Assembly: GCA_016928755.1 (NCBI GenBank)
Contig: JAFGKB010000065.1
Coordinates: 1 to 20,564 of the forward strand
DNA length: 20,564 nt
Direction of reading: 5' to 3'
DNA from: Anaerolineae bacterium
GTDB taxonomy: Bacteria > Chloroflexota > Anaerolineae > B4-G1 > SLSP01
A program made the position numbers and the translations under genes. This document shows positions 1 through 18,370 of the stretch, piece after piece. Positions within the stretch are counted from its first letter, which is position 1; each line of letters opens with the position of its first letter. Below the pieces are notes generated by a model. The model saw nothing but the letters and a program-made list of their open reading frames with translations, did not search any database and was not told where the DNA came from.

Positions 1-40
1 ACGTTTTTCTCTGTCTGTCCTTCACAAAAGAGGTAAATAC

Positions 41-1294
41 TCATTCAACCACCTCCCCTGCTAACCGGAATTGCACAGGAGGCAAAAAATCACCCCAAAC
101 ACGTGGGTCCAACCCTGTTTCCAACCAGGTGAGTAAATTATCCGCATCAAACCAAGTAGATTTCAGATGACCTTGTTGCAGGTTGAGGAGAAAGGCTCTA
201 GTGTCATCGGGTGACAAGGCACCTTCCTGCAACATCTGAGTCAAGTGAGCAACCACTTCCAAACTATGAGAAACCATAAAAACTTGGATTGGTTTCCCGC
301 GTACAATATCAGCCACTTCTCGCAAAAGTTTACCTAATGTTTGTGGATTCTGAAACATCTCCGGCTCCTCCCACAGGAGCATAGCCGGCATAGCAGGTGT
401 AGCCAAGTGCGCAAGAGCAATGAGGGGCGTAAGTAGCTTGAAAGCGGACCGGGCACCATCTCCCCAGGCATCAATAGGTACAGCAGTACTCTCTTCCGGC
501 GCGATCCAGCCCTGAATAGCGTGTGGCTCATTTTTGGTAGGTAAAAACTGCACAGTAAAAGAGTCGGGAAGGTCAAAGATACGGGCAAAGCGTTGCGCTA
601 TTTTCTGGGTCCAGCCGGGGACCGTCGCCAACATCTCTTCATAAAAGTTCGCCGGCAAATGTTCCTGTACATTGAGCATATCATAATAAAGCACATGATT
701 AGCTGGGGGTAAATTGCCTTTTACCCACCAATTAGCACTTCCTTTGTAAAAATGAGTTAACTCCCGCTGCCAGCAAAAGACAAGTTTTTGATCATCTGGC
801 CAGTCTTCCAACGGGTGACCCATTAACTGAGTAGCAAATTCCATTAATCGGACTATCTCATCAGGGTTAGGTTGCAAACGAAATAGATATATTTGCAAAG
901 ACTCACGCTCAGTAAGCGGAGCATTATCAACAGCGAGATCAAAGGTATTAATAGGCACCCGTTCATCATCAACAGTAACTTGCAAGATATCCTGGCTAAA
1001 GCGATTACTACCATTTGTCACACCACTATGTTTGTGCCGTTTCGACAAATGATTAGTGGGATGCTGATTAAGCATATCTCTAGCTGGCAATCCAACAGTA
1101 TAGCTTTCAGAACGACCTTGGTCAGACACAATCAAACTAGCAGACCGGTTCGCCGTACTGGCTAAATAAATTAGTTCCAACACTGCTGTCTTACCCGCAT
1201 TATTTGGCCCCACAAGGAGGTTAAATTGGCGTAAACGGTCCAGTTTTCCAGTCCCAATACCACGAAAGTTATGAATCTCTAACTGTTCTATCAT
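41..1294 (-). CDS. ABC-type P-loop ATPase of the OLD/RecF-like (AAA_15/AAA_21) class with no fused nuclease domain. It is the downstream gene of the RAMP plus ATPase pair.
   Basis: The 417-aa ORF has an N-terminal 'LEIHNFRGI' motif typical of RecF/SMC/OLD-type ABC ATPases. Walker A is 'LLVGPNNAGKT'. A degenerate signature-like 'WGDGARSAF' sits upstream of Walker B 'AMLLWEEPE', and an H-loop 'FMVSHS' follows. I see no TOPRIM or HNH motif. The start ATG overlaps the stop of the upstream ORF (ATGA at 1291-1294). Confidence 0.8.
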   Translation of the reverse strand: MIEQLEIHNFRGIGTGKLDRLRQFNLLVGPNNAGKTAVLELIYLASTANRSASLIVSDQGRSESYTVGLPARDMLNQHPTNHLSKRHKHSGVTNGSNRFSQDILQVTVDDERVPINTFDLAVDNAPLTERESLQIYLFRLQPNPDEIVRLMEFATQLMGHPLEDWPDDQKLVFCWQRELTHFYKGSANWWVKGNLPPANHVLYYDMLNVQEHLPANFYEEMLATVPGWTQKIAQRFARIFDLPDSFTVQFLPTKNEPHAIQGWIAPEESTAVPIDAWGDGARSAFKLLTPLIALAHLATPAMPAMLLWEEPEMFQNPQTLGKLLREVADIVRGKPIQVFMVSHSLEVVAHLTQMLQEGALSPDDTRAFLLNLQQGHLKSTWFDADNLLTWLETGLDPRVWGDFLPPVQFRLAGEVVE

Positions 1295-2415
1295 ATCTCT
1301 GCCTCTGAAGGTAAAGTCTTATTAACAAAATCTTGTACTTGGATACTTGATAAAGACTGAAAAAATGTATCTGAAGAAGCAAAAGTTACCTCCGCAGTAC
1401 GATAACGAACCTTTAACGCACGCAACCATGTATCAGGTTTTCCTAAAACGGCTTGTAACCGTTGTCCTACTTCCTGCTGTTGGCTTTGTCTTACGTGTGG
1501 GGGATAAGCCCATCCACGTATCCGCCAAGTCGTCGAATCCGGTAATTGGTAAGCCCAACTCAAAACTATTTTACTACGACTACGCTTTTCACCATGCAAT
1601 GTGCCAAAAAATTGGTGGGGTAAAGAACCAGATGACCATGAAACACCATAACGCAGTACATTTCTCAAAGCTGGTGTTGTAGGTATAGTATGATAATGCA
1701 ATAGATCACTCACTTTGTTATGATGGTAATGCTCACGAATCACTCTGTCTATCCCTGGAACAGTCTGCCACCAATCGTCGCTCTGTGGCTCAAAGTTAAG
1801 AGCAAAAAAAGTAAAAGTACGTAAGTCAGGAAAATTATGGTTATTTTCGCCGCCAGTTAAAGTATTCCAACTGTAAGTTGACTGAGGTAGCTCATTCACT
1901 TTGACAATTGAGAATAATCCGTAACCAAGTTGAGGTCTAGCTCCCAAGTTACCCCATTTTTCAATAAATTTCAACAAAGCTAAAACAAAAGACTGTGTTT
2001 CAGGCTCTGCAATAATCTTAAGCTTGAGTGTCCCCATCTTCCCTGCGTTAAGATACCAACCATGATTACGGCCTGGAGGTTTAATATTTATTTGTCCACC
2101 TGACCAGGTATCACGCAATCCAGAACCATCCACTACTAACCGAAATCGACGCCGCCAGCCAGTAGCGCCAAATAGTTGACACGCATCACATAAGCCATCT
2201 TTGGAACTTTCCAAATCATAAACACAAGAGTGCTTTGTTGGATCACATACCCGCCCACCCAAGCCACGTACAATAGCTTCATACCACCAGCGCAGGCTAC
2301 CGATAATACCAGTTTCGTGGACGCGATCCATCTTACCAGATTCCACGCCGCCGGTCCACAGAGGCGTCAACATCTTGATTTCTAATTCCATTTCCAGCTC
2401 CACATAAAACAACAC
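1291..2415 (-). CDS. RAMP-superfamily (Cas7/Cmr-like RRM-fold) protein with no CRISPR array or other cas genes in the window.
   Basis: The 374-aa ORF has a beta-1 'KMLTPLWTGG' that resembles the TPLhIGGG of Cmr1/Cmr6/Csm5. The helix 'GIIGSLRWWYEAIVRG' resembles IPGSS[LI]KGxLR. A Cys/His cluster (C-x4-H-x-C ... C-x2-C) is followed directly by 'QLFGATGWRRRF', as in the CxxC-(R/K)LFG of Csm3/Cmr4/Cmr6. A G-rich loop 'GARPQLGYGLF' lies about 165 residues in. The remaining 200 aa are unassigned but include 'FFGTLHG'. Three in-frame ATGs are possible at 2415, 2391 and 2373, and the one at 2391 has GGAG 7 nt upstream. AT-rich codon usage matches the ATPase gene and differs from the neighbouring genes. 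Confidence 0.6.
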   Translation of the reverse strand: MLFYVELEMELEIKMLTPLWTGGVESGKMDRVHETGIIGSLRWWYEAIVRGLGGRVCDPTKHSCVYDLESSKDGLCDACQLFGATGWRRRFRLVVDGSGLRDTWSGGQINIKPPGRNHGWYLNAGKMGTLKLKIIAEPETQSFVLALLKFIEKWGNLGARPQLGYGLFSIVKVNELPQSTYSWNTLTGGENNHNFPDLRTFTFFALNFEPQSDDWWQTVPGIDRVIREHYHHNKVSDLLHYHTIPTTPALRNVLRYGVSWSSGSLPHQFFGTLHGEKRSRSKIVLSWAYQLPDSTTWRIRGWAYPPHVRQSQQQEVGQRLQAVLGKPDTWLRALKVRYRTAEVTFASSDTFFQSLSSIQVQDFVNKTLPSEAEI

Positions 2416-2512
2416 ATATTAGGCGTTTCAGAAATAACAAGAATACTAAAGTTGTTGCCGCGAATCAACCAGGCCAGGAAAAATCGTTGCCGAATTCAGC
2501 TACACCTAACTC

Positions 2513-4422: not shown

Positions 4423-5727
4423 TTAATCTTGCGTTATTAAAACATTTGAGGAATTATCAGCACCACCAAAGTTACCGCCATCGGCTTGCAAGACATTGAT
4501 GATCTGCATCAAACTCTCGATTTGTTTAAACATCTCTTTTTGAACTTCAGGATCACGTTCGACCATCGAGCGCAACACATCGACAAAGCTAAGCACAATC
4601 AGTTGTGATGGAACTTCAACGCCATTATTGACCATATGCTGAACGTCTTTTAACATAGTCGTAACTAAATTCGCTTCAGCACTGATACGAGCCTGCATAA
4701 CTACATCCGTGTATTTTGCTTCACCCTCATTGACTTTACGGTCAGCATAACTCTGTAACTTAGCCTGCCAGAATTCCAGCCATTGGCGCGAGATCGCCTC
4801 TTCGGCAGGCATAATAGGCCCAAGTTGCACGCTCTCAACCTCAATTCCCAGGTTAGCCCCGGCTTTCTTGGCCGCCCCCTCAAGCTGTACCTCAAGTGAA
4901 CCTAAAGTCTGTGGCTCAAGTTCCCTTTCCGGTTGCCCCTCTTCAGACCAATACTGGGGATTCAACAACTGGTCAAGGCGGTACTGTTCAAGCAAGTCAC
5001 GAATATCACCATCTAACACGCCCCCAGATATACGCCCGGTCCAATCTTGGAAAACACCCTCCCCCTTGACCCGCTTAATAGTTGTAGCGGTCATAATTGC
5101 CTCTTCAGAGAAGGGATAGGGTACAGATTCCGTCGGTGGCTCTTCACCACTGCTAATCCGGAAACGGATATCGGCTTCACAATGAGCCGGGATACCATCA
5201 CGGGTCATAAATTCAACTTCAACGGTCCGTCGCTGGGGGCGCAGGTCGACAACTTCCCAAACCCGCTCAAAAGCCTCTAATTTATGGAACCCCGGTTTGA
5301 GGATCCGCTTGAGTTTACCAAACTGGGAAGTGACTACCGCGCTATCATGGCTCACACCAAGGAAACCCGGCCCACCCAATTTAAGCATCGTTGCCGGGCC
5401 ATCGGGGTCGGTGTGGCCTTCTCGCACACTTAAAACAGGACTAAACGGAGGTTGTTTCGGCAAGCCAAAGACAATACGATTGACCAGGTCCCAGGCATCA
5501 TCAAAAGACAAGTCATAAAAGCTCTGAGCAAACTGGATCAACACACCGATGGAAGCGGCAAAAGCCAGCCCCAGACTCATACCAAAAGCCATTACCAGTA
5601 TAAAGAAGGTCAACTGCCGCTCAGAATAGAGGCTAGGAAAACCAAAGAGCAGCAATACAGCAAAGACTAGGGTAAAGATAACAACACTCAGACCAATAAC
5701 AGTTCTCGCATTAATTTTGCCACTCAT
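4423..5727 (-). CDS. Membrane-anchored SPFH/band-7 (flotillin/stomatin-like) protein.
   Basis: The 434-aa ORF has two N-terminal hydrophobic helices. The next segment, 'KLGGPGFLGVSHDS...LKPGFHKLEAFERVWEVVDLRPQRRTVEVEFMTRDGIPAHCEADIRFRI', follows the SPFH core pattern (PGhh..hP...h..VDhR.Q.h......TKD.h.h.hd..h.aRI). The C-terminal part is Ala/Glu/Gln-rich and coiled-coil-like, as in flotillins. Confidence 0.7.
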   Translation of the reverse strand: MSGKINARTVIGLSVVIFTLVFAVLLLFGFPSLYSERQLTFFILVMAFGMSLGLAFAASIGVLIQFAQSFYDLSFDDAWDLVNRIVFGLPKQPPFSPVLSVREGHTDPDGPATMLKLGGPGFLGVSHDSAVVTSQFGKLKRILKPGFHKLEAFERVWEVVDLRPQRRTVEVEFMTRDGIPAHCEADIRFRISSGEEPPTESVPYPFSEEAIMTATTIKRVKGEGVFQDWTGRISGGVLDGDIRDLLEQYRLDQLLNPQYWSEEGQPERELEPQTLGSLEVQLEGAAKKAGANLGIEVESVQLGPIMPAEEAISRQWLEFWQAKLQSYADRKVNEGEAKYTDVVMQARISAEANLVTTMLKDVQHMVNNGVEVPSQLIVLSFVDVLRSMVERDPEVQKEMFKQIESLMQIINVLQADGGNFGGADNSSNVLITQD

Positions 5728-5729
5728 GC

Positions 5730-7280
5730 TTACCCCTCCTTTTCCTTCTTAGTTTCCGGCTCTCGTTTAGTTTCTTTAGCCTTTTTGCGCAGGTTAACAA
5801 GTGCCGGCAACGCCAATTCAGGCAGCAAAGGCCGGACCTCTGGACTACGGGCAATACTCTCTAACGAGTCCAGGAGGTGATAAGCTATCAGATTATGTGT
5901 CAGTTTGCCATCCGCATGCTGGAGCTGGGCACTGGTTTTCTCCAAGAGCTTGTGAACCAAATCAACCCGTGCCTTACTCTGCGCCTCGGCAAATGCCTTA
6001 AAGCGCTCAGCCTGAGTCTGAGCCTGCCATTCCATAATTTTCCCGGTCCAGCTCGCTTTCCAGGCTTCAATACGCTGCTCGGTAACGCCCTGATCAGTAG
6101 GATAAATCTTATTTCCCACCCCACCCCCAAGAACCTTAAAGCCTTTGGCTTCCAGAGTCTCTTTAACAACTTCTCGTACTGCCGCACCTAAATCGGCTCG
6201 GACGGGTTTCTCAGTATTGGGGTTAGCATACAAATGGTTCAGACTATACTGGGCAACCACCTTCTTAAGCTGTGGAATTGCAACCCTAAGAGGTAAGTCT
6301 AACCAGGGAAAGGCATCGTGAGCTTTCAGCGGTGTCTTGCCCTGGGGATTAACTTCGGCAGCAGAAAAAACTACTTTAAAAGCATCACTCTTCCGGTATG
6401 GCCAGGGCTGCCCTAATTGGATTTGCCCGTCACCGGGGTTAACCTGGAAGATAGATGAGATCGGCAAACTAACACTTATACCGTCTCGTGTGATAGCTTC
6501 TACTCGCTGCGCCCTTAATTGCGGGCGCAGGTCAAGGACAGAGTGTATTAAATCCCCACTCTCAGTAAAAATCACACCAGGACCATCAATCCGGCGAATA
6601 TCGGAAGAACCCTTGATTACGATTGCATTATGCGGCTCAGACATCACCCAACCGGGGCCAGACCCTAAGAAGGGATTCCCCTTGATGCGCGGCTCAGCTT
6701 TACCATCCACCACCATCCAGGTATTCTTGGGAAAGGTCGTGAAAAACCCAACGATTAGAGAAAGTGTTTTACGCAGCTTTCCTTCTTCCTCTGGGTCAAC
6801 AGGGATAATTAAAGATCCCCAAAGCACCAGGGCAAAAATAGCGCAGAGGGGCGGAAGTCCCATAAAAAGGAGATAGAGCAAAAGTTGCGCCACCGTAAAA
6901 TCGTAAAACATAAGCAAGACCCCGCCCAGACCCAAAGGGACCAAGACGCCCACCAGAAAGACCGCCGGAATAGAAACAGGGACTATCTTGGTCCACATAA
7001 TGAAGATTAGGAAAGGTACCAGGGGGATACAAATACTCAACAGCAAAACAGATAGCATATGAGACGGCAACACCCCAAGCCACAACAGACCGGGCAAGGG
7101 CCACAATAAAACACCCCACATGCCTAAAATTGCCGCCAGAGTACGCGAAAGCGGGTCAACAAATTTTTTCTTAGGCGCAGGAGGTTTTTTAATGGTGTTC
7201 ATAAAAATATACACAGCACCCGTCATATAGATAATGAATATTAGCAAACGTAGCAACATACTACCTCCTCCCCACAGCAA
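5730..7280 (-). CDS. Polytopic membrane protein with a C-terminal SPFH/band-7 domain, a paralogue of the downstream gene.
   Basis: The 516-aa ORF has about six predicted TM helices in the first 170 aa. It then reads 'IDGPGVIFTESGDLIHSVLDLRPQLRAQRVEAITRDGISVSLPISSIFQV', an SPFH-like core that also matches 'GPGF...VVDLRPQ' in the 4423-5727 product. The tail is coiled-coil-like and ends with a Lys/Glu-rich C-terminus. RBS GGAGGAGG lies 7-14 nt upstream (7283-7295 on the minus strand). The stop is 2 nt from the next start. Confidence 0.65.
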   Translation of the reverse strand: MLWGGGSMLLRLLIFIIYMTGAVYIFMNTIKKPPAPKKKFVDPLSRTLAAILGMWGVLLWPLPGLLWLGVLPSHMLSVLLLSICIPLVPFLIFIMWTKIVPVSIPAVFLVGVLVPLGLGGVLLMFYDFTVAQLLLYLLFMGLPPLCAIFALVLWGSLIIPVDPEEEGKLRKTLSLIVGFFTTFPKNTWMVVDGKAEPRIKGNPFLGSGPGWVMSEPHNAIVIKGSSDIRRIDGPGVIFTESGDLIHSVLDLRPQLRAQRVEAITRDGISVSLPISSIFQVNPGDGQIQLGQPWPYRKSDAFKVVFSAAEVNPQGKTPLKAHDAFPWLDLPLRVAIPQLKKVVAQYSLNHLYANPNTEKPVRADLGAAVREVVKETLEAKGFKVLGGGVGNKIYPTDQGVTEQRIEAWKASWTGKIMEWQAQTQAERFKAFAEAQSKARVDLVHKLLEKTSAQLQHADGKLTHNLIAYHLLDSLESIARSPEVRPLLPELALPALVNLRKKAKETKREPETKKEKEG

Positions 7281-7344: not shown

Positions 7345-10300
7345 CTATCCCCCTTTTATAATCAAGGGCAGATATACGACATGTGGTATTTGTAATACAT
7401 TCCCAGCAAAGATATTATTGGTCTCGATAGCTTCTTCAATCATACCAAAGGGTTTACCAAAGGGCGGATCCGCACCAAACCAGGTTACATCGGCCTGTCC
7501 ATAAGTGCGATACGTGCCAGCACCGGGGGCATAACCATCACAAGAATATTCTCGCGACTCCCCGGCCTCTAATGACGTTATCCAAGCGATACAGATACTA
7601 CCATAATGATCACCGACACTGGATGGCGGGGTATTACTCCCCTCTTTGAGATAAGCCTCAACAATTGCTATATAACCAGTATCCCCGTTCCAGTTGCGGT
7701 CAACTGCCATATTACCCTGATTTTCAATGGTGATATAAGCCCATAATGGCTCATTAGCAATGGGGGCAGATGGCTCCCAGCGTACATTGGTGATGACCAA
7801 ATCCGGGGCGATAAAGTAATCGTGATCTTCATCCTGATTGTCCGTCATGTCACTTTCTGCACTCTCCTGCCCGGTTACATACCCCATACTGACCGTATTC
7901 AACACCGACCTTACAGTATCCGTGGGAATAGATGAAGCGAGTTGAATACCAAAGGTCACAGAACGCGAAGCCCCTACGGCTAATGGCACGTTATCAACAA
8001 AGACAAAAACACCATCAGACACCTCTGTCCAGTCCTCCCATGCCAGCGGTGTGACATAGAGACGCGGGGTTATCGTATCGGTAAGTACCACACTCTCCAA
8101 CGGCAAATCAGAGGCTGAAGTATTGGTATACCGGATTGTGTAGTTCAAGGTCATACCAGGGTCTAACCACACCACACCGTCATCTTTGGATACCTGGACT
8201 TCCACTTTAGAGAGTCCGGAAACATCAACACAGGCCGTCTCTTCAACCGGCGATTGTCCTGTTACCGCCACCGTATTGCAATAATCAGCACCATCCGGGG
8301 CCAAGCGGTCCACTTTCGCGCGGAACGTCAAGGTGCGGGATTCTTCGGCTCCGATATTAAACGGCTTCCAGACCACAACCTGCCGGTCACCGGACATAAA
8401 CGGGGTTTCCACATCAGAGGTAGGGGCGATAAAAGTGAAGTTTACCGGCAGCGTATCTGTCACACGCACATTTGAATAAGAGACGGAATCATTGTTTACC
8501 AGTTGGATAGAATACACAACCTCCTCACCGGCAGTAACATGGGTAGGCGTGACCGACTTACTGACCTGAATACCCGATACTTCCAAGGCATCTATATCCT
8601 GGTCACTGTTGTTAGAGGGGTCAACATCCACCGCGTTATCCAGGGTGATGAAACCAACATCAACCTGATTGATGATAGAACCCACCCCAGGTATTGATGG
8701 ATCAATACGCACCGGGAATTTCACAAAATCCGCTTTGCCGGCAGCCAAGGGAGTAGGATAAGCGATCACCCGCCGGTAACGTCCGGTGCCGATCTCCTGC
8801 CAGGCAGAGTCTAAAACCTGGACATAACGACCGGGATCAACCGTCTCGGTCAAGATAACACTCTGTAAACCGGAGCCACCGGCATAAGCATTCGTGTAAT
8901 GAATCGTATAGGTAATCCATTGACCGGGACTAACCAGGGTCTCGCCATCATCCTTACTCACCTGCACGTCAACTTTAGGCGTGGGCAAGACATCCACCGG
9001 AGCCAGCCCGCCGTGAAGTGGCATATCAAATTCCCCGACTTTCACCTGGACCTTATTAAGCCGGACCCCAGACGTTGCAAAAGGTGAGACCTGTGCCCGG
9101 AAGACAAGTTGAACGGTCTTGCCCGGTTCTAAAAGTACTGCGGGCCAAGCAACACCACCGGGGAATGCTGCACCACCGGGCGGCGAGAGCACCTTATCCA
9201 AAGAAATATCACTGGGTAACGTATCGGTTACCCGGACGGTGTAGTTGTCCATTATACCATCCATTAAACGCAGCGAGATAGTATAGACAACCTGATCCCC
9301 GGCACGTACCCGGTCCGGGGAAACGGTCTTGGTCACCGTCACAATCTCCCGGCCACTGATAAGGTCAACATCCTCAGCCGTATTATCACTATGCGATGCT
9401 TCTACAGCATCCTCGGCTAGAGTATAACCAATCTCGACCTTGTTACGAATGCCCAGGTAATCCATAGGAATACTTTCATCAAGCTGTATCTGGAACACGG
9501 TGCTGCCGGAATCACCGGCGACCAAAGGTGTGGTAATCGTGCGCGTATAGCGACCACCGCCTAGGGAATGCCATGCACTTTCCGGGGAGAGCACCGTGAG
9601 ATAATCAGCCGGGAATATGGTTTCGGTCAAAATGATGGTCTCAAAGGTCTTGGCCTCAAGAGATGCATTCGTGTAGTAAATCGTATACTCAAGGGCTTCA
9701 CCCTCAGAAACCCAATCCAGACCATTGCTCTTGGACACCTGAGCGTCAACCCGAGGTAACTCGGTGACTTCAACCCGGGCCAGGTTTTCAACAGGCGGCA
9801 ACACCACCTCGCCCATCTCAACCTGAACACTGTTAAAGTAATTACCACTGGCAATTTCACGATTGGAATGCGCCTTAAATAAAAGCTCTATCGTATCACC
9901 GGCCTGACCTTTAGGGCTAATTGACATCCCCTCACCCTCCCAGACCACAAGTTGTTGACCATCACGTTCCACAACAGAGCCGGGGAAAGGAGCACTAAGC
10001 CCCCCCACCAACGTGAAACCGGCAGGTAAGGTATCGGTCACAATCAAAGGATAGGTGGTATCGGTGTCATTTTCCAGAGTGATCCGGTAGATCACATCCT
10101 CACCGGCCATCACAGCTTGTGGGTCAACAGTCTTCGCCACTTCCACCTTCGGACGGCCCCGCACATTGACCGGGGCTGTGAAATCTGTAGCCGAAAGCTC
10201 TATCAGCCCCTGGCCCTCTTTCTCAGCCTGGCCGGCCAACTGACTCGGATACTCCCCACTGAACATATTCGCATCACTCTGCACCTTATACGTGATCAAA

Positions 10301-13300
10301 TAGCTAGCACCATCATCAATAGGGCCGGGGACCTCCCAGACAAGGTCGTTCGACTCGCCTGCCGGCGTTAGCCCTGCCGGTTGGCTAGTACTGACAAAGG
10401 AGAACCCGTTAGGAATGGTGTCCGTGAATACCAGATTAGATAATTCAGCCCCAGAACCATTATAAAGAGTAAGCGTGTAGGTCGTAGCCTCACCGGCATT
10501 AATGTATTCCGGGTCTACCACTTTAAAGAAACCAATACCCGGCACGACTTCCACCTTAGCGTCGTCGGTGTAGTTCTTGCTGTAATTAACATTCATCGTC
10601 GCCGAGGCTTCCCACGAATTCAAAGCATTCAAACTCAGCCAACCATGAGCACGCGCCGTGAAGACAATCTCAACTTGCTCTAGTGGCGATATAACATCGA
10701 ATTCCCATACAAGCGGGGATTCGCTCACCGGCTCGGGACCATCAATAACCCGCAGGTATTCCCAGGCCAAAACATTCCCGCCACCGGCATCTTTCTGAGG
10801 CAAAATATCGGTATATACAACATTGTAAGCCGGTGCCCCGGTGAGATTTGCCAGTTCTAAAGTATATTGCACCTCGCCAAATGGGCCTACACGTTGCGGG
10901 TCTGCCGGTTTGGAAACTTCAATCCCTTGATTCAAGACCAGGGGTTCAACCTTTTCATCACACGTCACCGGCAACTCGTCGGTAACGACGAATTTAGTAA
11001 CCTTGGGGATACATATCGTCTCGACATCATCCAGCGCCACAACCTGCGCGATAAATTCTTTCGAATAGGTCTCTTTATCGCCGGGTTTATCATAAGTAGG
11101 GGCCTGGAGCGTCAATGTAAAGGCCAAGGTCTCGCCGGGCGGGATCTCTAACCCCTCCCACATATAATAGATGCCATTTTCTGGGTTATCACTAGTGGTA
11201 TCCGGAGGCGGTTCACTGGAGAGAATCTCAAATGGCCCGGCATCCCCTTTCGCTTGGGCCGGGAACCACTGTAGGTCAACACCGGTAACACCGGCGTCAG
11301 GTTCAAAGCGATTATTACGTAACGACACTACAATTGAGAACACCTCACCTACGGCAACCGGATTGGGATAGGACTTTTGGAACAAAGACACATGGGGGAA
11401 CACACAAACAGGGGCCAGCTTAGTATTATAGGCACCACTCCCCCATACCCCGTTATCCAGCATCCCCAGTATATCACTGCCCCTTTGCTCAATCACACCA
11501 TCATCAGGCTCGGCCAGCATATCACACCATGTATGACCTAGCCCATATCCCGACATCGTTACCGGGAATGTATGGGTCCAAGAAGTCGCCCGGTTAGGCT
11601 CCAAACGGAATGGGGTGGGCAGTGTATATTCATACATGGTATCACCATCAGCCGGGTCTTTGAGACCCTTATAAGTATTGGAGGCCGAATCCGGTTTGTC
11701 CAATAAATCGGCAAATGCAGTCAAGGTAAACGGCAAACTGGGTGAAATATTATTTAACCATACCGTATATGTAACCATATCTCCCTGCACTACCTGTTCC
11801 GGCACCACCTTTTTATCATAGCCAATGGGAGGTGTAATATTAATCTTGACATTATTCGTACAAACAGAAGTCGCAGCATGGTAACCGTAGACATAGTTGG
11901 GAATTTGCTTGCCTGACATACCGGCGCGCACAAGGAAAGAGAACTCCACGTGCCCCCCTGGTGACAAAGTAGTAGAGAGCACATCATCCCAACGCAGGAA
12001 TGTCCCGGTTATCAAATTTCCACTCACAACAGGCTCCCCAGGGAAGCTAGATACCATCGCTTCATACTGAAAGAAGGCAGACAAAGCATCGGTTATCACC
12101 AAGGGAGGGTTGATAGGGGTATTCCCCTCATTATCAATTGAAATCGTATAAGTAATCAACTCGCCAAATATCTGCGTAGAAGGCTGAACCGTCTTCTTAA
12201 CCATAAGTTGCGGTGCAACATCAATAGGAGCCAATTCATTATCATCGTGCCCATCATAATAGGGCACAGGGAATTGTGGAGAATATGCAATCACCGAATT
12301 GGGGTACTCAAGAGGCTTACAACGGTCTTCGACCGGAGTCTGTGACGAAATAAAGACCTGGAAAACAGTGCTTATACTCTCATAAGCCCCCACAGGAATG
12401 CTTGACCATTGTACCAAGGTCCCGGTGATTTTTGTAGGAGTCAATATATCACCGGTCACCGGCCCAACATATGAAAAATGCAGGGGCAAGTGGTCCTCAA
12501 TAGTCACAATAGTGGTCTGGGATAAAGGATTATAATAAGTTAAGGTATAAGTAATCATACGATTAGGATAGGAAACATAGGGGTCTACAGGGGGTGATTC
12601 TGTTTGCACGGCTTTATCAACAGGACTTAAAATCTTCACATCATGGTCTTTGGCAAGTGTAGCCGGACGGAACATAACACCATCACAACTAACCCTGACA
12701 TTTTCTGCATCATTCTTCAGTTCGCCCCGTGTCTTAGGATTGTAAATTATATCTACCGGAACCCGTCCCACAAATGTGACGGTTAAAGTCTCCCCGGTCC
12801 CTAAAGTATAAGTACTGGGGAGGGTCCACTGAATTTCATAGGTAGCGGGTGTGTAAACCACCGACACATCGAGATTCGGATGGTCGCTATCATAAGCACC
12901 TGAAGAATCAGGGATATACTCCAGTACGCCATCGTAACCATCCGGCAGCGTATCTTTAACCACCACATGCCTGGCCGGCCAGACATCAGGACGGTCGGCC
13001 TCTTCCTGGGAAAGATTATCAATGACAATCGTATAAGTCACTAAACGCCCCACCCGGCACTGTTCATCCCCGGCACTCTCACCGAAGGCCTTCTTGGTGA
13101 CCTCCAATAACGGGGCTACAATCTGCGCGGAAAGCGGCTCAGAGGAAACGCTCTGTTGACCCCCTAAAGCAACACTTACAGAATTATCAACCGTGGAAGG
13201 GCCGATCTCTTTGTAAGAAAAACTAAAAGGATAATTATCATAACTTTTCAGAGAGGGTTGCACCGTTATCGGAACACGGAGCCAGAATTCAATCTCGACA

Positions 13301-13782
13301 CTTTGGCCTGCCGGCAATGTCTTGAGCCACCATGTAGCCTCGCCGTTGTAACCTACTTCGTCAACCGTTTGGATGGCTTGGGAGATCAGATTGCTAGGTT
13401 CTGCCACAAAACCCTCAAAAGCCGGCAAAACGCCATAGCCCCACAATTTATCATCAATCTCCGGCGTCAGATTTGTGACCCAGGTATCAAAGACTACTAC
13501 ACCATCCAGGTCTCCCCCGCTGGTATTGGTCACTAGCAGGGTATAGGTGAGGCGGTCTCCGGCAAACACCGAATCCTCCCCTTTTAAGCTTACTGCAACA
13601 GCATCCAATGGCGCAGCCGGCCCGCGCTCGGCTTGAGATACAGCCGCACTCAAGGGCCATGCCCCGGTAGCAAAACCATCCAAGGTTGCCAAACACATCC
13701 CGAGGGTCCCCACAGCTATTATAAAAGCGAACACCAACCGCCAGGATTGATGCATACCTTGAAACCTACTGAAGTGTTCCAT
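7345..13782 (-). CDS. Giant secreted cell-surface protein of 2145 aa with multiple DUF11 ('conserved repeat domain') modules and a C-terminal CARDB-like domain.
   Basis: An N-terminal signal/TM segment 'WRLVFAFIIAVGTLGMCLATLDGFA' is present. At least ten repeats show the DUF11 signature, a [LIV]xYT[IL]x[LIV]xNxx run followed about 10 residues later by VTDT[LI]P. Examples are 'VIYRITLENDTDTTYPLIVTDTLPAGFTLV', 'VVYSIQLVNNDSVSYSNVRVTDTLPVNFTFI', 'TTYTLTLYNGSGAELSNLVFTDTIPNGFSFV' and 'LNYTIRYTNTSASDLPLESVVLTDTITP'. The C-terminal 'LVITNVRWEPSAPIANEPLWAYITIENQGNMAV' is CARDB-like. RBS GGGGGAG lies 9 nt upstream of the ATG. Confidence 0.85.
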   Translation of the reverse strand: MEHFSRFQGMHQSWRLVFAFIIAVGTLGMCLATLDGFATGAWPLSAAVSQAERGPAAPLDAVAVSLKGEDSVFAGDRLTYTLLVTNTSGGDLDGVVVFDTWVTNLTPEIDDKLWGYGVLPAFEGFVAEPSNLISQAIQTVDEVGYNGEATWWLKTLPAGQSVEIEFWLRVPITVQPSLKSYDNYPFSFSYKEIGPSTVDNSVSVALGGQQSVSSEPLSAQIVAPLLEVTKKAFGESAGDEQCRVGRLVTYTIVIDNLSQEEADRPDVWPARHVVVKDTLPDGYDGVLEYIPDSSGAYDSDHPNLDVSVVYTPATYEIQWTLPSTYTLGTGETLTVTFVGRVPVDIIYNPKTRGELKNDAENVRVSCDGVMFRPATLAKDHDVKILSPVDKAVQTESPPVDPYVSYPNRMITYTLTYYNPLSQTTIVTIEDHLPLHFSYVGPVTGDILTPTKITGTLVQWSSIPVGAYESISTVFQVFISSQTPVEDRCKPLEYPNSVIAYSPQFPVPYYDGHDDNELAPIDVAPQLMVKKTVQPSTQIFGELITYTISIDNEGNTPINPPLVITDALSAFFQYEAMVSSFPGEPVVSGNLITGTFLRWDDVLSTTLSPGGHVEFSFLVRAGMSGKQIPNYVYGYHAATSVCTNNVKINITPPIGYDKKVVPEQVVQGDMVTYTVWLNNISPSLPFTLTAFADLLDKPDSASNTYKGLKDPADGDTMYEYTLPTPFRLEPNRATSWTHTFPVTMSGYGLGHTWCDMLAEPDDGVIEQRGSDILGMLDNGVWGSGAYNTKLAPVCVFPHVSLFQKSYPNPVAVGEVFSIVVSLRNNRFEPDAGVTGVDLQWFPAQAKGDAGPFEILSSEPPPDTTSDNPENGIYYMWEGLEIPPGETLAFTLTLQAPTYDKPGDKETYSKEFIAQVVALDDVETICIPKVTKFVVTDELPVTCDEKVEPLVLNQGIEVSKPADPQRVGPFGEVQYTLELANLTGAPAYNVVYTDILPQKDAGGGNVLAWEYLRVIDGPEPVSESPLVWEFDVISPLEQVEIVFTARAHGWLSLNALNSWEASATMNVNYSKNYTDDAKVEVVPGIGFFKVVDPEYINAGEATTYTLTLYNGSGAELSNLVFTDTIPNGFSFVSTSQPAGLTPAGESNDLVWEVPGPIDDGASYLITYKVQSDANMFSGEYPSQLAGQAEKEGQGLIELSATDFTAPVNVRGRPKVEVAKTVDPQAVMAGEDVIYRITLENDTDTTYPLIVTDTLPAGFTLVGGLSAPFPGSVVERDGQQLVVWEGEGMSISPKGQAGDTIELLFKAHSNREIASGNYFNSVQVEMGEVVLPPVENLARVEVTELPRVDAQVSKSNGLDWVSEGEALEYTIYYTNASLEAKTFETIILTETIFPADYLTVLSPESAWHSLGGGRYTRTITTPLVAGDSGSTVFQIQLDESIPMDYLGIRNKVEIGYTLAEDAVEASHSDNTAEDVDLISGREIVTVTKTVSPDRVRAGDQVVYTISLRLMDGIMDNYTVRVTDTLPSDISLDKVLSPPGGAAFPGGVAWPAVLLEPGKTVQLVFRAQVSPFATSGVRLNKVQVKVGEFDMPLHGGLAPVDVLPTPKVDVQVSKDDGETLVSPGQWITYTIHYTNAYAGGSGLQSVILTETVDPGRYVQVLDSAWQEIGTGRYRRVIAYPTPLAAGKADFVKFPVRIDPSIPGVGSIINQVDVGFITLDNAVDVDPSNNSDQDIDALEVSGIQVSKSVTPTHVTAGEEVVYSIQLVNNDSVSYSNVRVTDTLPVNFTFIAPTSDVETPFMSGDRQVVVWKPFNIGAEESRTLTFRAKVDRLAPDGADYCNTVAVTGQSPVEETACVDVSGLSKVEVQVSKDDGVVWLDPGMTLNYTIRYTNTSASDLPLESVVLTDTITPRLYVTPLAWEDWTEVSDGVFVFVDNVPLAVGASRSVTFGIQLASSIPTDTVRSVLNTVSMGYVTGQESAESDMTDNQDEDHDYFIAPDLVITNVRWEPSAPIANEPLWAYITIENQGNMAVDRNWNGDTGYIAIVEAYLKEGSNTPPSSVGDHYGSICIAWITSLEAGESREYSCDGYAPGAGTYRTYGQADVTWFGADPPFGKPFGMIEEAIETNNIFAGNVLQIPHVVYLPLIIKGG

Positions 13783-13814
13783 TTATGCTCCCCCACTATT
13801 TTAAATGATAACCC

Positions 13815-13841
13815 CCGCACCGGCCTATAAAACCGGTGCGG
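13815..13841. terminator. GC-rich hairpin with a perfect 9-bp stem (CCGCACCGG / CCGGTGCGG) and a 9-nt loop, lying between the LPXTG gene and the giant DUF11 gene. It may be a terminator or attenuator.
   Basis: The inverted repeat 13815-13823 / 13833-13841 was read directly. On the plus strand it is followed by the T-rich run 'TTCCTATTT'. On the minus strand, which is the one transcribed here, it is followed by 'GGGGTTATCATTT'. It is the only strong secondary structure in the 101-bp spacer. Confidence 0.35.
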
Positions 13842-13883
13842 TTCCTATTTACACAACAAAAGGGCGCCACCAATTGTCAATAC

Positions 13884-14768
13884 CTAATGTAATGGTCCCT
13901 GTCCCGATTCCTGCCGGCGACGCACCCAAGCCACCCCGATCATAACCATAGCTAGACCAATACCCAAAGCCGCAAATCCCAAACCCAATCCGGTCTTAGG
14001 TAAAATACCGGTTTGCTCGGCACCGGTATCTGAGGCACCCTCCACAGCACCACCTGCTCCCATCTGACTTGCGCCAACTCCGGAGGCGGCACCGGTGTCT
14101 GCAGCGGCGGCACCGGTGGCCGTAGCACTTGCCCCAACATCGCTTGTGCCAGAGCCATCAACCGGCGTGGAAGTGGGAGCAATCACACCACCATCACCGC
14201 GTGTTGGTGTAGCAGGTGGACCGGGCAACGGTGGAGATGTAGGCTGTGGTTGGTCCGGGTCATCCGGTTCATCTGGCTCAGTCGTCGGGGGCGGCGGAGT
14301 CTCGCTTGTTGGGGGCGGCGTAGTTGGCGGCGCTGTTGTCGGGGGTGGTGTCGTTGGTGGTGCAGTTGTTGGCGGAGGCGTTGTCGGCGGTGCCGTTGTC
14401 GGTGGTGGCGTAGTGGGCGGTGCCGTTGTCGGTGGTGGCGTAGTGGGCGGCGCAGTGGTTGGTGGCGGCGTGGTTGGCGGCGGTGTAGTCGGAGGGGGTG
14501 TAGTGGGTGGTGCTGTGGTTGGCGGAGGCGTTGTCGGAGGCGCAGTTGTAGGTGGTGGCGTAGTTGGTGGAGCAGTTGTCGGCGGAGGCGTAGTCGGCGG
14601 AGGCGTAGTTGGTGGAGCAGTTGTTGGCGGGGGCGTAGTCGGAGGCGGTGTCGTCGGTTCTTGAGCGAAAACCTGGGGAACCGGCAACGCTCTTGTCCAT
14701 GCACCTAATGCCAATATAAACACTACCAGCAACGTAATCGTAATCCCAAGTAAACGTCGTATATTCAT
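13884..14768 (-). CDS. Sortase-anchored (LPKTG) Pro/Thr-rich repeat stalk protein with no globular domain.
   Basis: The 294-aa ORF has a signal peptide 'LLGITITLLVVFILALGAWT'. About 135 residues are (PTTPP/PTTAP)n repeats. A Gly/Ala/Ser/Thr-rich segment follows, then 'LPKTG', then the hydrophobic 'LGLGFAALGIGLAMVMIGVAWV', then 'RRRQ'. This last arrangement is the canonical LPXTG cell-wall sorting signal. RBS GGGAGGG lies 8 nt upstream. Confidence 0.8.
   Translation of the reverse strand: MNIRRLLGITITLLVVFILALGAWTRALPVPQVFAQEPTTPPPTTPPPTTAPPTTPPPTTPPPTTAPPTTPPPTTAPPTTPPPTTAPPTTPPPTTPPPTTPPPTTAPPTTPPPTTAPPTTPPPTTAPPTTPPPTTAPPTTPPPTTAPPTTPPPTSETPPPPTTEPDEPDDPDQPQPTSPPLPGPPATPTRGDGGVIAPTSTPVDGSGTSDVGASATATGAAAADTGAASGVGASQMGAGGAVEGASDTGAEQTGILPKTGLGLGFAALGIGLAMVMIGVAWVRRRQESGQGPLH
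14306..14655 (-). repeat. In-frame tandem repeat with a 15-nt unit (GGNGGNGGNGTNGTN on the plus strand) and a 30-nt super-period. It encodes (PTTPP/PTTAP)n.
   Basis: The near-identical units 'ggtggtggcgtagtgggcggtgccgttgtc' occur at 14401-14430 and 14431-14460 and continue on either side. The degenerate copies differ mainly at third codon positions and at the Pro/Ala codon. Confidence 0.85.
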
Positions 14769-14810
14769 TTTTCTACACCCTCCCTTACAACCGAGGAACC
14801 TTGATTATAT

Positions 14811-17800
14811 TTAAAAACGTATCACAACCGGCAGATAAATAGTTGAGATTAAGTATTGCTCGCAACCCATAAACTCCTCACTGCCATTATACCCACACAC
14901 TCGCCACGTGAAGGGGCCGGCAACCACGGCTTTAGGCTTAGATTCAGGCACATACATAGTGTTGTTAATCTCTTTGTAAAGCTGGTAATTAACCGAGAAG
15001 TTGTTATCCGAAGCCACTTCCAAATTATAGTAGGAGGCACCCGGTAAAACCGACCACCGGAAATAAGCGGTATCGGTAAACGAATCGGTACGCAACGGGA
15101 AGACTAAGCTTGGAACATCCGAACCTTTGGTAAAACGCCCCTCAGCATAATTATCCTGGCTCATATTTCCTGTGTCTGTGCCATCATACATGCGCACCCG
15201 CCAGACATAGTCACCATTAGGGATTGCGTCCTCAGGTACAAAAATATTATTCACCATCTCATCTTCACTGAAACTATACCCGCCCCCTTCTAGCTCAAAG
15301 TGGTACCGGGCAGCCCCTTGAACAGGAGACCAACTAAAAGTCGGGGTGCTCTTCACAAATTCGCCAGTAGACGGTGATAAATTGGTAGGAACCTGGGCAC
15401 GCTTGCTAAAACGAATCGCACGACTCCAATTAGATTCCAGTATATTCTTACTCCAACTAGATGTAATAGCCCAGGGATCAGGATACCGGCTCTGCAGACG
15501 CCAGAAGTAAACGTTATCCGCATAAACATCAGCTGTCAAATAATAAGGATTAGAATCCGAGAAGGACATAATCAATGGGATTTGACCATTAGGCTCCTCC
15601 CCCTCCTCAATTTGCGAAAAGGTATCATCAGTGCTGCTTTGGTAACGCACATTACGGATATCTTCCATTGTGTGCCAGGTCATCAATGGCATGCGAGGAT
15701 AAATAACTGTACGATCTTCCAAAAGGTGCATATTAGGCGGTGTCCGGGGTGTAGGGGCAGAGGTGACGGCAACATACCCGCGGTCCACCGTATCTATAAT
15801 CGTATCACTTGAAGCATCCACAGAAACCAGGTGGGCATTCACCGTAGCCGGGCTGCCAATCGCAGTCTGGGGTACGGCCAGCATCACAAAACCGGCGGTA
15901 TCACTGTAAATCTGGGTGGTGGTAAACACAGCATAACCAAGTTTATCTAAAAGTGATGCATAATCCCAATTTGCACCCAACTTGGAAAACAACGTCACAG
16001 TGGGCATGCCACTGGCGCCGAACATATCCCACTGTAAAACATTCTCAGGGCGATAAGGATCTCCCGTATCAGGTAAAGCGTTTCCATCAGGATAAGGCGA
16101 ACTATCCATACCGCTATTATGTGCCCCATCCGTATCCAGATAAAGCTGAAACCGCACGGGACTACCGCTTTGCCGGATGGCCCAACCAAAATACCAATAG
16201 CTGTTGTCCATCGCAGTATACAACGCGGTCAAATCATAGCCATTATGTCCAGAATGGTCCCCTAATAAGTCAGCAGTTAATAACGCCTCCTGGCTAAACG
16301 GCTGATTTAACTTCTGTTCCGCATCACTATAAATAGGTTCCGGCGAGAATTGGCGTACCAGGGAGAAATAATACGACCAACTCCACCCATCCCCGCTTCC
16401 CATCGGTTCATTAATACTGTTAAGCGCGCGTACCCGCCAGTAGTAAGTATCAGGGGGATAACGCTTAACAGGAGTATAGTTAGTTAACTCAGTAGCGGTT
16501 GTCTCAACTACAGAATCTCCAAAATCTGAAGACGTAGCGATCTGTACCTCATAATGATCTACGCCGTTAACCGGCACCCATTCCAGGTGGGGGAAGTGTT
16601 CCAATATCTGTTGGCCGTAAATCAAACCATCGCCCTCCTGTTGGCAGGTCGGCTGAACTAATCCAGGCGGCGCAACAGTAGGCGTATAAACATAACGGTT
16701 CTGGTCAATACGGGTCTGCCAAATCTGGCTCCAGGCCCCGTCCCCGGCATTCACCCGCCAATAGTAGATACCCGGATCACTAAAAGGTTCCAGTGAGGTC
16801 GGTGTCGCGCTGAGATTCTCGGTGGTCAACTCCCAGGCAACCGGGGAGAAAAATTTATTATCCGCAACCTGCACAGTATACGTCATCGCTCCCTGGATCT
16901 GGTTCCACATAAAGGTCGGTATTGCTGCAGTTCGGTCTTCCCACCTTAACGTGGTCGGCAAGACAACCGATTGCCCCGGTTCAAGATTGCTATACAGCGG
17001 ATCATAGTAGAATTCGGGATACAACAGATCAGGGGCTACGGCATAAGGGATTCCGGGATAAGAAGGATGGGTCGCTTTCTCCGGGCGGAAAGAGGCACTG
17101 GCATTGGGGGATTCATTATTCCATTCACCGGCTACCTCATAATAGTTAACGGCACGCACCCGCCAGAAGATCTGATTTAAACTTGTAAGATAGTCCCAAT
17201 CACCATCTGATTTCAACTCTTTAACAAGAAAACCAGTATTAATTATATCATCAAAAAAGCCTAAAACATTGGAACTAGGATCCTGTTGGAATGATGAAGT
17301 CTGGTTCATTTCCAACACATAATAGGCAACACCCTCAACCGGGGTCCAGCTAAAATAAGCACTGTTGATATGGTCCTCATTATTCACCGGTGTCAAGGGC
17401 AAAGGACGGCGGTCATTCCCTGCACCTAGCTTACTATCCAGGTTACAGGACCAGCAATAGCTAAATTTACGGCCATTGCCACCATTACTCCAGGGGCCAG
17501 AACGGGTCAGTGCATCCCGCAGATTACTACTATGTACAGCCCGCACCCGCCAATAGATAGTATCATCATTAGGTAATTTATAATCTCGCGCCGCTCCTGT
17601 AGATAGAGCAAAAGCCGTATTCCGGGGTTCATAAGTGTAAGTAAAGCCCGGCCAGCTTGGGTCATCAGGGAAATCAGGGTCAGAGCTGACCTGTAGAATA
17701 TAATATTCCGCGCCATCCACAGCCGTCCATTTTAGAAGTGGCGGCTTATAGAGTACGGCATCCTCTTCTGGCTGAACCAGGTTAGGCGCAATCCCCCAGT

Positions 17801-18260: not shown

Positions 18261-18370
18261 CAGAAGAACCTCCGCCATAACATATTTCTCATCTTCTTAA
18301 TAGGATTTTAAAGGAAAAATTTCCCATTCACAATTTAAGAATATCACTGAGATGATAAGGTTAAAGTCAC

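What the first reader, a model, noticed from the sequence alone, without database searches (positions are those of the whole stretch)
1291..2415. The RAMP protein seems to hold a full RRM-plus-G-rich-loop unit in its first 170 residues, followed by about 200 residues of unknown function
Canonical Cas7 proteins place the G-rich loop near the C-terminus of a single RRM. Here the loop 'LGARPQLGYG' comes at about residue 160-170. A further 200 residues follow: 'TYSWNTLTGGENNHNF...VSWSSGSLPHQFFGTLHGEKRSRS...RIRGWAYPP'. They could be a second, degenerate RRM, as in Cmr1 or Cas7-11-like fusions, or a distinct effector or sensor domain. Aromatic and basic patches ('RIRGWAYPPHVRQ', 'KVRYRTAEV') fit nucleic-acid binding. 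Three alternative in-frame start codons (2415, 2391, 2373) make the true N-terminus ambiguous. The ATG at 2391 has the best Shine-Dalgarno, a GGAG 7 nt upstream.
Basis: partly seen in the sequence, partly recalled or inferred. Interest (0 to 1): 0.6.

Follow-up and report, generated by a model that had tools for sequence, protein, structure and literature searches.

The report
Ordinary two-domain Cmr1 CRISPR subunit
The gene encodes Cmr1, a known subunit of type III CRISPR RNA-guided complexes whose family is already known to carry two tandem RNA-binding (RAMP) domains, so the extra 200 residues are the expected second domain rather than something new.

Summary

The contig ends 44 nt into the third gene of the operon. 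Relatives at 61-64% identity continue into a full type III-C cassette (cmr6, cas10c/csx11, cmr4, cmr5, cmr3).

The most interesting item lies outside the finding. An ABC-ATPase plus Toprim-like gene pair sits directly after cmr1 in 51 of 61 related loci, and I found no paper describing it.

The parts
1291..2391 (-). cmr1 coding sequence, 366 aa from ATG 2391, stop codon at 1291-1293
   Evidence: ORF list. TIGR01894 Cmr1 scores 64.4 bits against a cutoff of 28.65. PADLOC Cmr1 profiles match, including PDLC01111 over residues 9-321. NCBI model P0001 is 366 aa and named Cmr1. The start is supported by homologue N-termini.
2398..2401 (-). GGAG Shine-Dalgarno-like motif, 6-nt spacer before ATG 2391
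   Evidence: Read directly from the sequence.
1882..2391 (-). RAMP domain 1 (residues 1-170): beta1 2-7, alpha1 26-43, beta2 83-88, beta3 118-128, alpha2 130-146, G-rich loop, beta4 160-166
   Evidence: Pfam RAMPs matches its full profile length. Secondary structure comes from the AF2 model.
2263..2301 (-). alpha1 motif GSLRWWYEAIVRG (residues 31-43), counterpart of the RNA-binding first helix of Cmr1
   Evidence: G31, R34, W35, W36 and E38 are invariant or >=90% conserved. The motif aligns with AfCmr1 'IKGLMRWWFRAL'. The residues mutated in S. islandicus Cmr1-alpha are described in PMC5737701.
2179..2247 (-). Four-cysteine knuckle (C49, C56, C68, C71) inserted between alpha1 and beta2 of domain 1; predicted zinc site
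   Evidence: Conservation is 108, 103, 119 and 105 of 120 homologues. It aligns with the Cys-rich insert of gRAMP/Cas7-11-type chains. Metal binding is inferred, not tested.
1918..1953 (-). G-rich loop GNLGARPQLGYG (residues 147-158)
   Evidence: Q154, G156 and G158 are invariant; G147, G150, L155 and Y157 are >=90% conserved.
1318..1830 (-). RAMP domain 2 (residues 188-358): beta1' 194-202, helical insert 207-262, beta2' 275-282, beta3' 289-295, alpha2' 302-325, beta4' 330-338, C-terminal helix 349-357; no G-rich loop
41..1294 (-). ABC-type ATPase (AAA_15/AAA_21, 417 aa); its start overlaps the cmr1 stop (ATGA)
   Evidence: Pfam. PADLOC matches AbiLi at 3.5e-20, PDC-M38A at 3.8e-20 and AriA at 1.4e-16. 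A homologue lies directly after cmr1 in 51 of 61 related loci.
1..44 (-). First 14 codons (plus 2 bases of the 15th) of a third gene (MSIYLFCEGQTEKN...), cut by the contig end; a Toprim-like partner of the ATPase
   Evidence: Sequence. The 14 residues are identical to the N-terminus of the 236-aa gene in L007. That family conserves E8-G-x-T-E12 and D60-x-D62.

Best explanation
The gene encodes Cmr1, the two-RAMP-domain (double Cas7) subunit of a Cmr-type type III CRISPR effector complex, here most likely of subtype III-C. Translation starts at ATG 2391 and gives 366 residues. Residues 1-170 form a Cas7-like RRM with a conserved first helix (G-S-L-R-W-W), a four-cysteine knuckle and a G-rich loop. 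Residues 190-358 form a second, diverged Cas7-like RRM with a helical insert and no G-rich loop. By homology with characterised Cmr1 proteins, it should sit with Cmr6 at the 3' end of the crRNA, at the head of the Cmr4/Cmr5 filament, and help bind crRNA and capture target RNA rather than cut it. Shown here: the fold, the family assignment, the start codon and the operon context in relatives. Inferred only: position in the complex, RNA binding and zinc binding. The rest of the operon lies beyond the contig end.
For: Sequence family. TIGR01894 Cmr1 gives E 1.4e-17 and 64.4 bits against a cutoff of 28.65. Several PADLOC Cmr1 profiles match, one covering residues 9-321. A profile of 120 homologues hits the solved Cmr1 of A. 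fulgidus (4l6u, E 3.6e-4) and a Cmr1-MntA chain.

Context. The third gene at 1-44 has the same 14 N-terminal residues as the 236-aa gene of L007. In L007-L010 (Cmr1 61-64% identical) the operon continues with Cmr6 (8e-81), Cas10c (1e-189; TIGR02682 Csx11 2.8e-135), Cmr4 (1.4e-32), Cmr5 (7.5e-42) and Cmr3 (1e-75). Of 36 related loci that have the ATPase and at least 6 kb downstream, 34 carry Cas10 (my hand count from the table).

Literature. [quoted passage not shown] PMC5737701 reports that first-helix residues I52, G54, R57, W58, F59 and R61 of S. islandicus Cmr1-alpha act in crRNA and target RNA binding. Five of the six have counterparts here: I29, G31, R34, W35 and W36.
Against: The window itself contains no cas10, cmr3-6, cas6 or CRISPR array, so operon membership rests on relatives. 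Sequence identity to solved Cmr1 proteins is only 12-15%, and sequence profiles align just the N-terminal ~45 residues plus the G-rich loop region. The two halves show no significant sequence similarity to each other (hhalign E 0.24), so internal duplication is a structural inference. The counterpart of R61 is an invariant Glu (E38). Foldseek TM-scores to Cmr1 are moderate (0.38-0.56), which implies different domain orientation or inserts. Two related loci (L083, L046) have cmr1 plus the ATPase pair without cas10, so a truncated or stand-alone arrangement cannot be excluded for this contig.
Confidence: 0.87

Rival explanations
1. The C-terminal ~200 residues are a distinct effector or sensor domain fused to a single-RRM Cas7, not a second RAMP domain.
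For: The region has no Pfam family. It has no significant sequence similarity to the N-terminal RAMP. It contains a ~55-residue helical insert (residues 207-262).
Confidence: 0.03
2. The gene belongs to a stand-alone three-gene module (Cmr1-like RAMP, ABC ATPase, Toprim-like protein) that acts without a Cas10 complex. The RAMP would sense RNA and the ATPase/Toprim pair would execute.
For: The window holds only these three genes, next to housekeeping genes. L083 has Cmr1-ATPase-Toprim in a restriction-modification island with no cas10 within 10 kb, and L046 has Cmr1-ATPase-partner-Cmr6 followed by a type IIG enzyme. The genes overlap by 4 nt, which suggests translational coupling.
Against: The contig simply ends inside the third gene. 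The closest relatives, with the same gene order and overlaps, continue into a full III-C cassette. By my count, 34 of 36 loci with the ATPase and enough downstream sequence carry cas10. The genome with the cas10-less copy (L083) also has a complete cassette on the same contig (L038).
Confidence: 0.07
3. The N-terminal RAMP domain is a catalytically active Cas7 that cleaves target RNA, because it keeps an acidic residue (D22) in the beta1-alpha1 loop where Cmr4/Csm3 carry their catalytic Asp.
For: D22 is D in 107 and E in 10 of 120 homologues, inside a conserved D-R-x-H-E-T-G motif. The strongest PADLOC hit by E-value is a Csm3-named RAMP profile.
Against: In the alignment, a conserved Glu lies one position from D22 in the non-catalytic Cmr1 proteins of A. 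fulgidus and the Cmr1-MntA chain, so a neighbouring acidic residue is a Cmr1 family trait. PMC5737701 cites earlier work showing that Cmr complexes lacking Cmr1 still cleave RNA, and that Cmr4 is the slicer. No active-site geometry was tested here.
Confidence: 0.03

Closest known systems
Cmr1 of type III-B Cmr complexes (A. fulgidus AF1868, PDB 4L6U/9L7C; P. furiosus Cmr1-1, 4W8X/4W8Z; S. islandicus Cmr-beta Cmr1, 6S6B chain J)
   Different: Only 12-15% identity. It carries a four-cysteine knuckle between alpha1 and beta2 and a helical insert in domain 2. Glu replaces the R61-equivalent Arg. Relatives pair it with a cyclase-dead Cas10c/Csx11 (subtype III-C) rather than Cmr2.
Cas7-2x of the Synechocystis type III-D variant effector (PDB 8S9T chain D)
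   Different: Cas7-2x is 506 residues and belongs to a fused-subunit III-D complex with a different gene set. Identity is 14%. The match says the protein works like a double Cas7, not that it belongs to that family.
Cas7-11 / gRAMP (type III-E) Cas7 domains
   Different: Cas7-11 fuses four Cas7 domains and a Cas11-like domain in 1200-1800 residues and acts as a single-protein effector. This protein has two domains and is one subunit of a multi-subunit cassette.
Type VII Cas7 (PDB 8YHD and related entries)
   Different: Type VII Cas7 is a single-RRM protein of about 200 residues with no second domain.

Membership tests
Cmr1 (Cas7-group RAMP of type III-B/III-C) | Scores above the curated threshold of the Cmr1 model | tested here: met
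   TIGR01894 scores 64.4 bits against a cutoff of 28.65. Six PADLOC Cmr1 profiles match, E 2.3e-18 to 0.029.
Cmr1 (Cas7-group RAMP of type III-B/III-C) | Two tandem RAMP / ferredoxin-like domains ('double Cas7') | tested here: met
Cmr1 (Cas7-group RAMP of type III-B/III-C) | Conserved first-helix residues implicated in crRNA and target RNA binding (I52, G54, R57, W58, F59, R61 in S. islandicus Cmr1-alpha) | tested here: met
   I29, G31, R34, W35 and W36 are present and conserved. The R61 position is an invariant Glu (E38), so 5 of 6 are met.
Cmr1 (Cas7-group RAMP of type III-B/III-C) | Encoded in a cassette with cas10 and cmr3-cmr6 | tested here: inconclusive
   The window ends 44 nt into the third gene. 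Relatives with the same first three genes carry cmr6, cas10c, cmr4, cmr5 and cmr3, as do 34 of 36 informative loci (my count).
Cmr1 (Cas7-group RAMP of type III-B/III-C) | Sits at the crRNA 3' end of the effector complex and promotes target RNA capture | not testable with these tools
   Needs purification or a structure of the complex.
Subtype III-C CRISPR-Cas locus | Cas10 of the Csx11/Cas10c kind with an inactive cyclase site | tested here: inconclusive
   The window has no cas10. In L007 the 927-aa protein matches Cas10c at 1.1e-189 and Csx11 at 2.8e-135, has an N-terminal HD motif (LLHDVGK) and no GGDD.
Subtype III-C CRISPR-Cas locus | Gene order cmr1-cmr6-cas10-cmr4-cmr5-cmr3 | tested here: inconclusive
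   Seen in relatives and in the RefSeq-annotated Anabaena cylindrica plasmid locus. In the window only cmr1 is visible, and an ATPase pair follows it.
Canonical single-RRM Cas7 (Csm3/Cmr4/Cas7 proper) | [quoted passage not shown] | tested here: not met
   A second RAMP domain follows at residues 190-358.
Cas7-11 / gRAMP single-protein effector | Four Cas7 domains plus a Cas11-like domain in one polypeptide of more than 1200 residues | tested here: not met
   366 residues and two domains. The NF041225 match is only 11.4 bits against a cutoff of 700.

The most novel reading that the evidence does not exclude
The diverged C-terminal RAMP domain of this Cmr1 clade may be the docking or signalling surface for the co-conserved ABC-ATPase/Toprim pair encoded directly after cmr1. 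Cyclase-dead type III-C complexes, which have no known effector, would then act as RNA-guided triggers of an OLD/PARIS/AbiL-like nuclease module. The evidence does not exclude this. The pair is present in 51 of 61 related loci across many phyla, the genes overlap, and no paper describing the association was found. The evidence does not support it specifically either. Cmr1 proteins from loci without the ATPase keep the same C-terminal domain, and the residues that differ between the two groups are spread over both domains.
Probability: 0.1. Interest if true: 0.6.

Novelty: new member of a known kind. Interest (0 to 1): 0.15.

Why it matters
For the finding itself, very little. It confirms that an automatically annotated Cmr1 has the two-RAMP architecture already documented for the family, and it fixes the start codon.

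Three smaller points have modest value. First, the C-terminal RAMP domain is invisible to Pfam, so sequence-only readers will keep flagging it as unknown. Second, this clade adds a conserved four-cysteine knuckle to domain 1. Third, the apparent 'orphan RAMP plus ATPase' arrangement in this window is an artefact of a contig end, not a stand-alone system.

The neighbouring ATPase/Toprim pair is the more useful lead. [quoted passage not shown]

Tried and rejected
- **Internal duplication by sequence.** hhalign of the N-terminal against the C-terminal half of the 120-sequence alignment gave E 0.24 and probability 0.25%. This is not significant, although the F-G-[AT]...R-x-R and R-G-W segments line up by eye. 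I do not claim a sequence-level duplication.
- **Pfam on the C-terminal 191 residues.** Nothing meaningful.
- **Direct sequence search of PDB.** Only the Cys-rich segment matched gRAMP-type chains. The profile search reached Cmr1 only through the N-terminal ~45 residues and the G-rich region.
- **C-terminal domain in other architectures.** An exhaustive phmmer search found 55 clusters, all at the C-terminal end of Cmr1-sized proteins or fragments of them.
- **CRISPR array or RNA genes in the window.** None. The only tandem repeats are inside a Pro/Thr-rich gene.
- **Promoter scan upstream of cmr1.** No site in the 2392-2512 gap, and counts were at background level.
- **ATPase linked to particular C-domain residues.** Differences between loci with and without the ATPase occur in both domains and track overall divergence.
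- **Literature on an ATPase/Toprim pair in type III-C.** Nothing found. The library is incomplete. An unexamined 'Type III-C specific' cluster (C3a152, Cylst_6373) in PMC6546367 could be one of these genes.
- **tblastn of the ATPase against plasmids.** No match.
Full report
**1.

Pfam's RAMP model (PF03787) matches residues 12-169 of the 374-residue reading over the full 189-position profile (E 6.8e-23). A complete RAMP unit, including the G-rich loop GNLGARPQLGYG, therefore ends near residue 170. The remaining ~200 residues match no Pfam family. The three in-frame starts and the GGAG six bases before ATG 2391 can be read directly from the sequence.

**2. Start codon**

I aligned 120 homologues and counted the residues preceding the conserved LTPLW strand.
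- 39 sequences have 7 residues, exactly what ATG 2391 gives (MELEIKM).
- 24 have 10 and 33 have 11.
- None has the single residue that ATG 2373 would give.
- Only one has the 15 residues that GTG 2415 would give.

NCBI's own model of this gene (P0001, 366 aa) also starts at 2391. ATG 2373 would remove the first beta-strand of the fold (residues 2-7 in the model). ATG 2391 is therefore the supported start, and all residue numbers below use it.

**3. Family**

- NCBIfam TIGR01894 (Cmr1) scores 64.4 bits against a cutoff of 28.65.
- Several PADLOC Cmr1 profiles match, and one (PDLC01111, 'Cmr1gr7') aligns residues 9-321, well into the 'unknown' half.
- The database holds 1606 relatives at E <= 0.001; many are named Cmr1 by NCBI or JGI.
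- A profile of 120 of them reaches the solved Cmr1 of Archaeoglobus fulgidus (4l6u, E 3.6e-4) and a 'Cmr1-MntA' chain. The match runs through the N-terminal strand, the first helix and weakly the G-rich loop region.

**4. Structure**

With the 120-sequence alignment, AlphaFold2 gives a confident model (mean pLDDT 92.8, pTM 0.92). It has two units, each in the order beta-alpha-beta-beta-alpha-beta.
- Domain 1: beta 2-7, alpha 26-43, beta 83-88, beta 118-128, alpha 130-146, G-rich loop 147-158, beta 160-166.
- Domain 2: beta 194-202, a helical insert 207-262, beta 275-282, beta 289-295, alpha 302-325, beta 330-338, and a C-terminal helix 349-357.

These aligned lengths are well beyond one 170-residue domain. 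Foldseek, a different method, puts four Cmr1 chains first (E 4e-11 to 7e-9, 351-378 alignment columns).

The C-terminal 200 residues are therefore a second, diverged Cas7-type RRM. It lacks a G-rich loop: the alpha2'-beta4' connection reads LGKPDTWLRALKV, and the single Gly of the family consensus 'ALG' is Lys in this protein.

**5. This is known**

[quoted passage not shown] Crystal structures of Cmr1 (4L6U, 4W8X/Z) were released in 2014.

The 'effector or sensor domain' alternative is not supported. An exhaustive search of 1.84 billion representative proteins with the C-terminal half found 55 clusters. In every one the match lies at the C-terminal end of a 300-455-residue protein or a shorter fragment, never in another architecture.

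The two halves are not detectably similar in sequence (hhalign E 0.24), so the duplication is visible only in structure.

**6. Likely function (inferred by homology)**

In S. islandicus Cmr1-alpha, first-helix residues W58 and F59 affect target RNA capture, and I52, G54, R57 and R61 affect crRNA binding. Complexes without Cmr1 still cleave RNA but capture targets poorly (PMC5737701). The same helix here reads I29-I-G31-S-L-R34-W35-W36-Y-E38. Five of the six positions are conserved, and the sixth is an invariant Glu instead of Arg.

From general knowledge of Cmr complexes, Cmr1 and Cmr6 cap the crRNA 3' end at the head of the Cmr4/Cmr5 filament. I infer the same role here; none of this was tested.

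The conserved residues of domain 2 are compatible with an RNA or subunit interface, but that is inference. They are PDLR 188-191, W207, W208, P237, K243, N244, R247, F262-G263, R272, S-W-A-Y 278-281, W289 and R292-G293.

**7. Context: the 'orphan' look is a contig-end artefact**

The whole contig is the window. The cmr1 stop overlaps the start of an ABC-type ATPase at 41..1294 (AAA_15/AAA_21). The ATPase stop overlaps an ATG at 44-42 that opens a third gene, of which only 14 complete codons fit before the contig ends. Those 14 residues, MSIYLFCEGQTEKN, are identical to the N-terminus of the 236-aa gene that follows the ATPase in L007.

In L007-L010 (Cmr1 61-64% identical) the order is cmr1, ATPase, 236-aa gene, then:
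- Cmr6 (8e-81)
- Cas10c (1.1e-189; TIGR02682 Csx11 2.8e-135)
- Cmr4 (1.4e-32)
- Cmr5 (7.5e-42)
- Cmr3 (1.1e-75)

That Cas10 has an HD motif and no GGDD. This is a subtype III-C cassette. A RefSeq-annotated Anabaena cylindrica plasmid shows the same cassette without the ATPase pair.

A scan of one genome per species found 398 loci encoding relatives, in Chloroflexota, Cyanobacteria, Methanosarcinales and ANME archaea, Saprospiraceae, WOR-3, Bipolaricaulia, Desulfobacterota, Bacillota and others. By my hand count from the table, 34 of the 36 loci with the ATPase and at least 6 kb downstream carry cas10. The window has no CRISPR array. The 2025 classification notes that most III-C loci lack one (PMC12669027).

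**8. What is mildly distinctive**

- Four cysteines (C49, C56, C68, C71) between alpha1 and beta2 are conserved in 86-99% of 120 homologues. They align with the Cys-rich inserts of gRAMP/Cas7-11-type and type VII Cas7 proteins. This is a predicted zinc knuckle, not tested.
- Cyanobacterial members have lost two or three of these cysteines.
- GC content of 1-2500 is 0.40-0.47, against about 0.50 for the rest, as expected for a transferred defence island.

**9. The passing lead**

The ATPase lies directly after cmr1 in 51 of 61 related loci that have enough downstream sequence. Some Chloroflexus and Roseiflexus loci carry two copies.

Its 236-aa partner family conserves E8-G-x-T-E12, D60-x-D62, H117, D133 and K185-D186. 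The Glu plus DxD pattern is Toprim-like, and there are weak matches to DUF3226, DUF4276 and HEC-01B. The ATPase resembles AbiLi, PDC-M38A, AriA, Old and GajA.

Published surveys say III-C systems lack cyclase sites and known effectors (PMC11229360). I found no paper describing this pair, but the library is incomplete. The pair also occurs apart from CRISPR genes, between methyltransferase genes in L083. L083 and L046 have cmr1 plus the pair without cas10.

I could not link the pair to the C-terminal domain of Cmr1 specifically.

**10. Verdict**

- The feature is an ordinary, already-annotated Cmr1 of a known architecture.
- Interest in the finding itself is low.

Noticed in passing
window 41-1294 (-) and 1-44 (-); related loci L007-L090: An ABC-type ATPase (AbiLi/AriA/Old-like) and a ~240-aa partner with a Toprim-like motif (E...DxD) sit between cmr1 and cmr6 in 51 of 61 related type III-C loci across many phyla. 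The genes overlap by 4 nt. Type III-C is reported to have no known effector, and I found no paper describing this pair.
   Followed up: partly
window 1-44 (-): The contig ends 14 complete codons (plus 2 bases of the 15th) into the third gene of the operon. Those 14 residues are identical to those of the 236-aa gene in L007. The apparent 'RAMP plus ATPase only' arrangement is therefore a truncation, not a two-gene system.
   Followed up: yes
window 2179-2247 (-): A four-cysteine knuckle (C49, C56, C68, C71) is inserted in RAMP domain 1 and conserved in 86-99% of 120 homologues. Cyanobacterial members have replaced two or three of the cysteines. It resembles the Cys-rich inserts of Cas7-11 and type VII Cas7.
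   Followed up: partly
L083 3712-14488 (same contig as L038): A cas10-less copy of Cmr1-ATPase-Toprim-like gene, plus an unassigned 340-aa ORF, lies in a restriction-modification island. A second ATPase/Toprim-like pair sits between a type IIG enzyme and a DrmMI-like methylase. The same contig also holds a complete III-C cassette (L038). L046 is similar: Cmr1-ATPase-partner-Cmr6, then a type IIG enzyme.
   Followed up: partly
L005 9068-13129; L020, L021, L026: Roseiflexus and Chloroflexus loci carry two tandem ATPase-plus-partner pairs after cmr1.
   Followed up: no
L004 12237-12973 (Cronbergia sp. UHCC 0137): Two small nucleotidyltransferase genes (NTP_transf_2/Polbeta) lie between the Cmr6-like RAMP gene and the cas10-sized gene of a related locus. 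The PDB holds a chain named 'Cmr1-MntA' (9z7q), so nucleotidyltransferases recur next to Cmr1.
   Followed up: no
window 2263-2301 (-): In the Cmr1 first-helix motif, the position of the functionally tested Arg (R61 of S. islandicus Cmr1-alpha) is an invariant Glu (E38) across this clade.
   Followed up: partly
window 1-2500: GC content is 0.40-0.47 across cmr1 and the ATPase, against about 0.50 for the rest of the contig. This is consistent with horizontal acquisition.
   Followed up: no
window 7345-18278 (-): A run of large probable cell-surface genes lies here. One is a 2145-aa protein with six DUF11 repeats. One is a 294-aa protein made largely of PPTT(A/P) repeats, which accounts for the tandem repeats at 14306-14642 and a local GC of 0.66. 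One is a 1155-aa protein with no Pfam hit.
   Followed up: no
window 4423-7280 (-): Two adjacent membrane proteins with SPFH/Band 7 domains (434 and 516 aa) are followed by a TPR-like protein and a PfkB-family kinase just upstream of cmr1. These are ordinary housekeeping-type neighbours.
   Followed up: no
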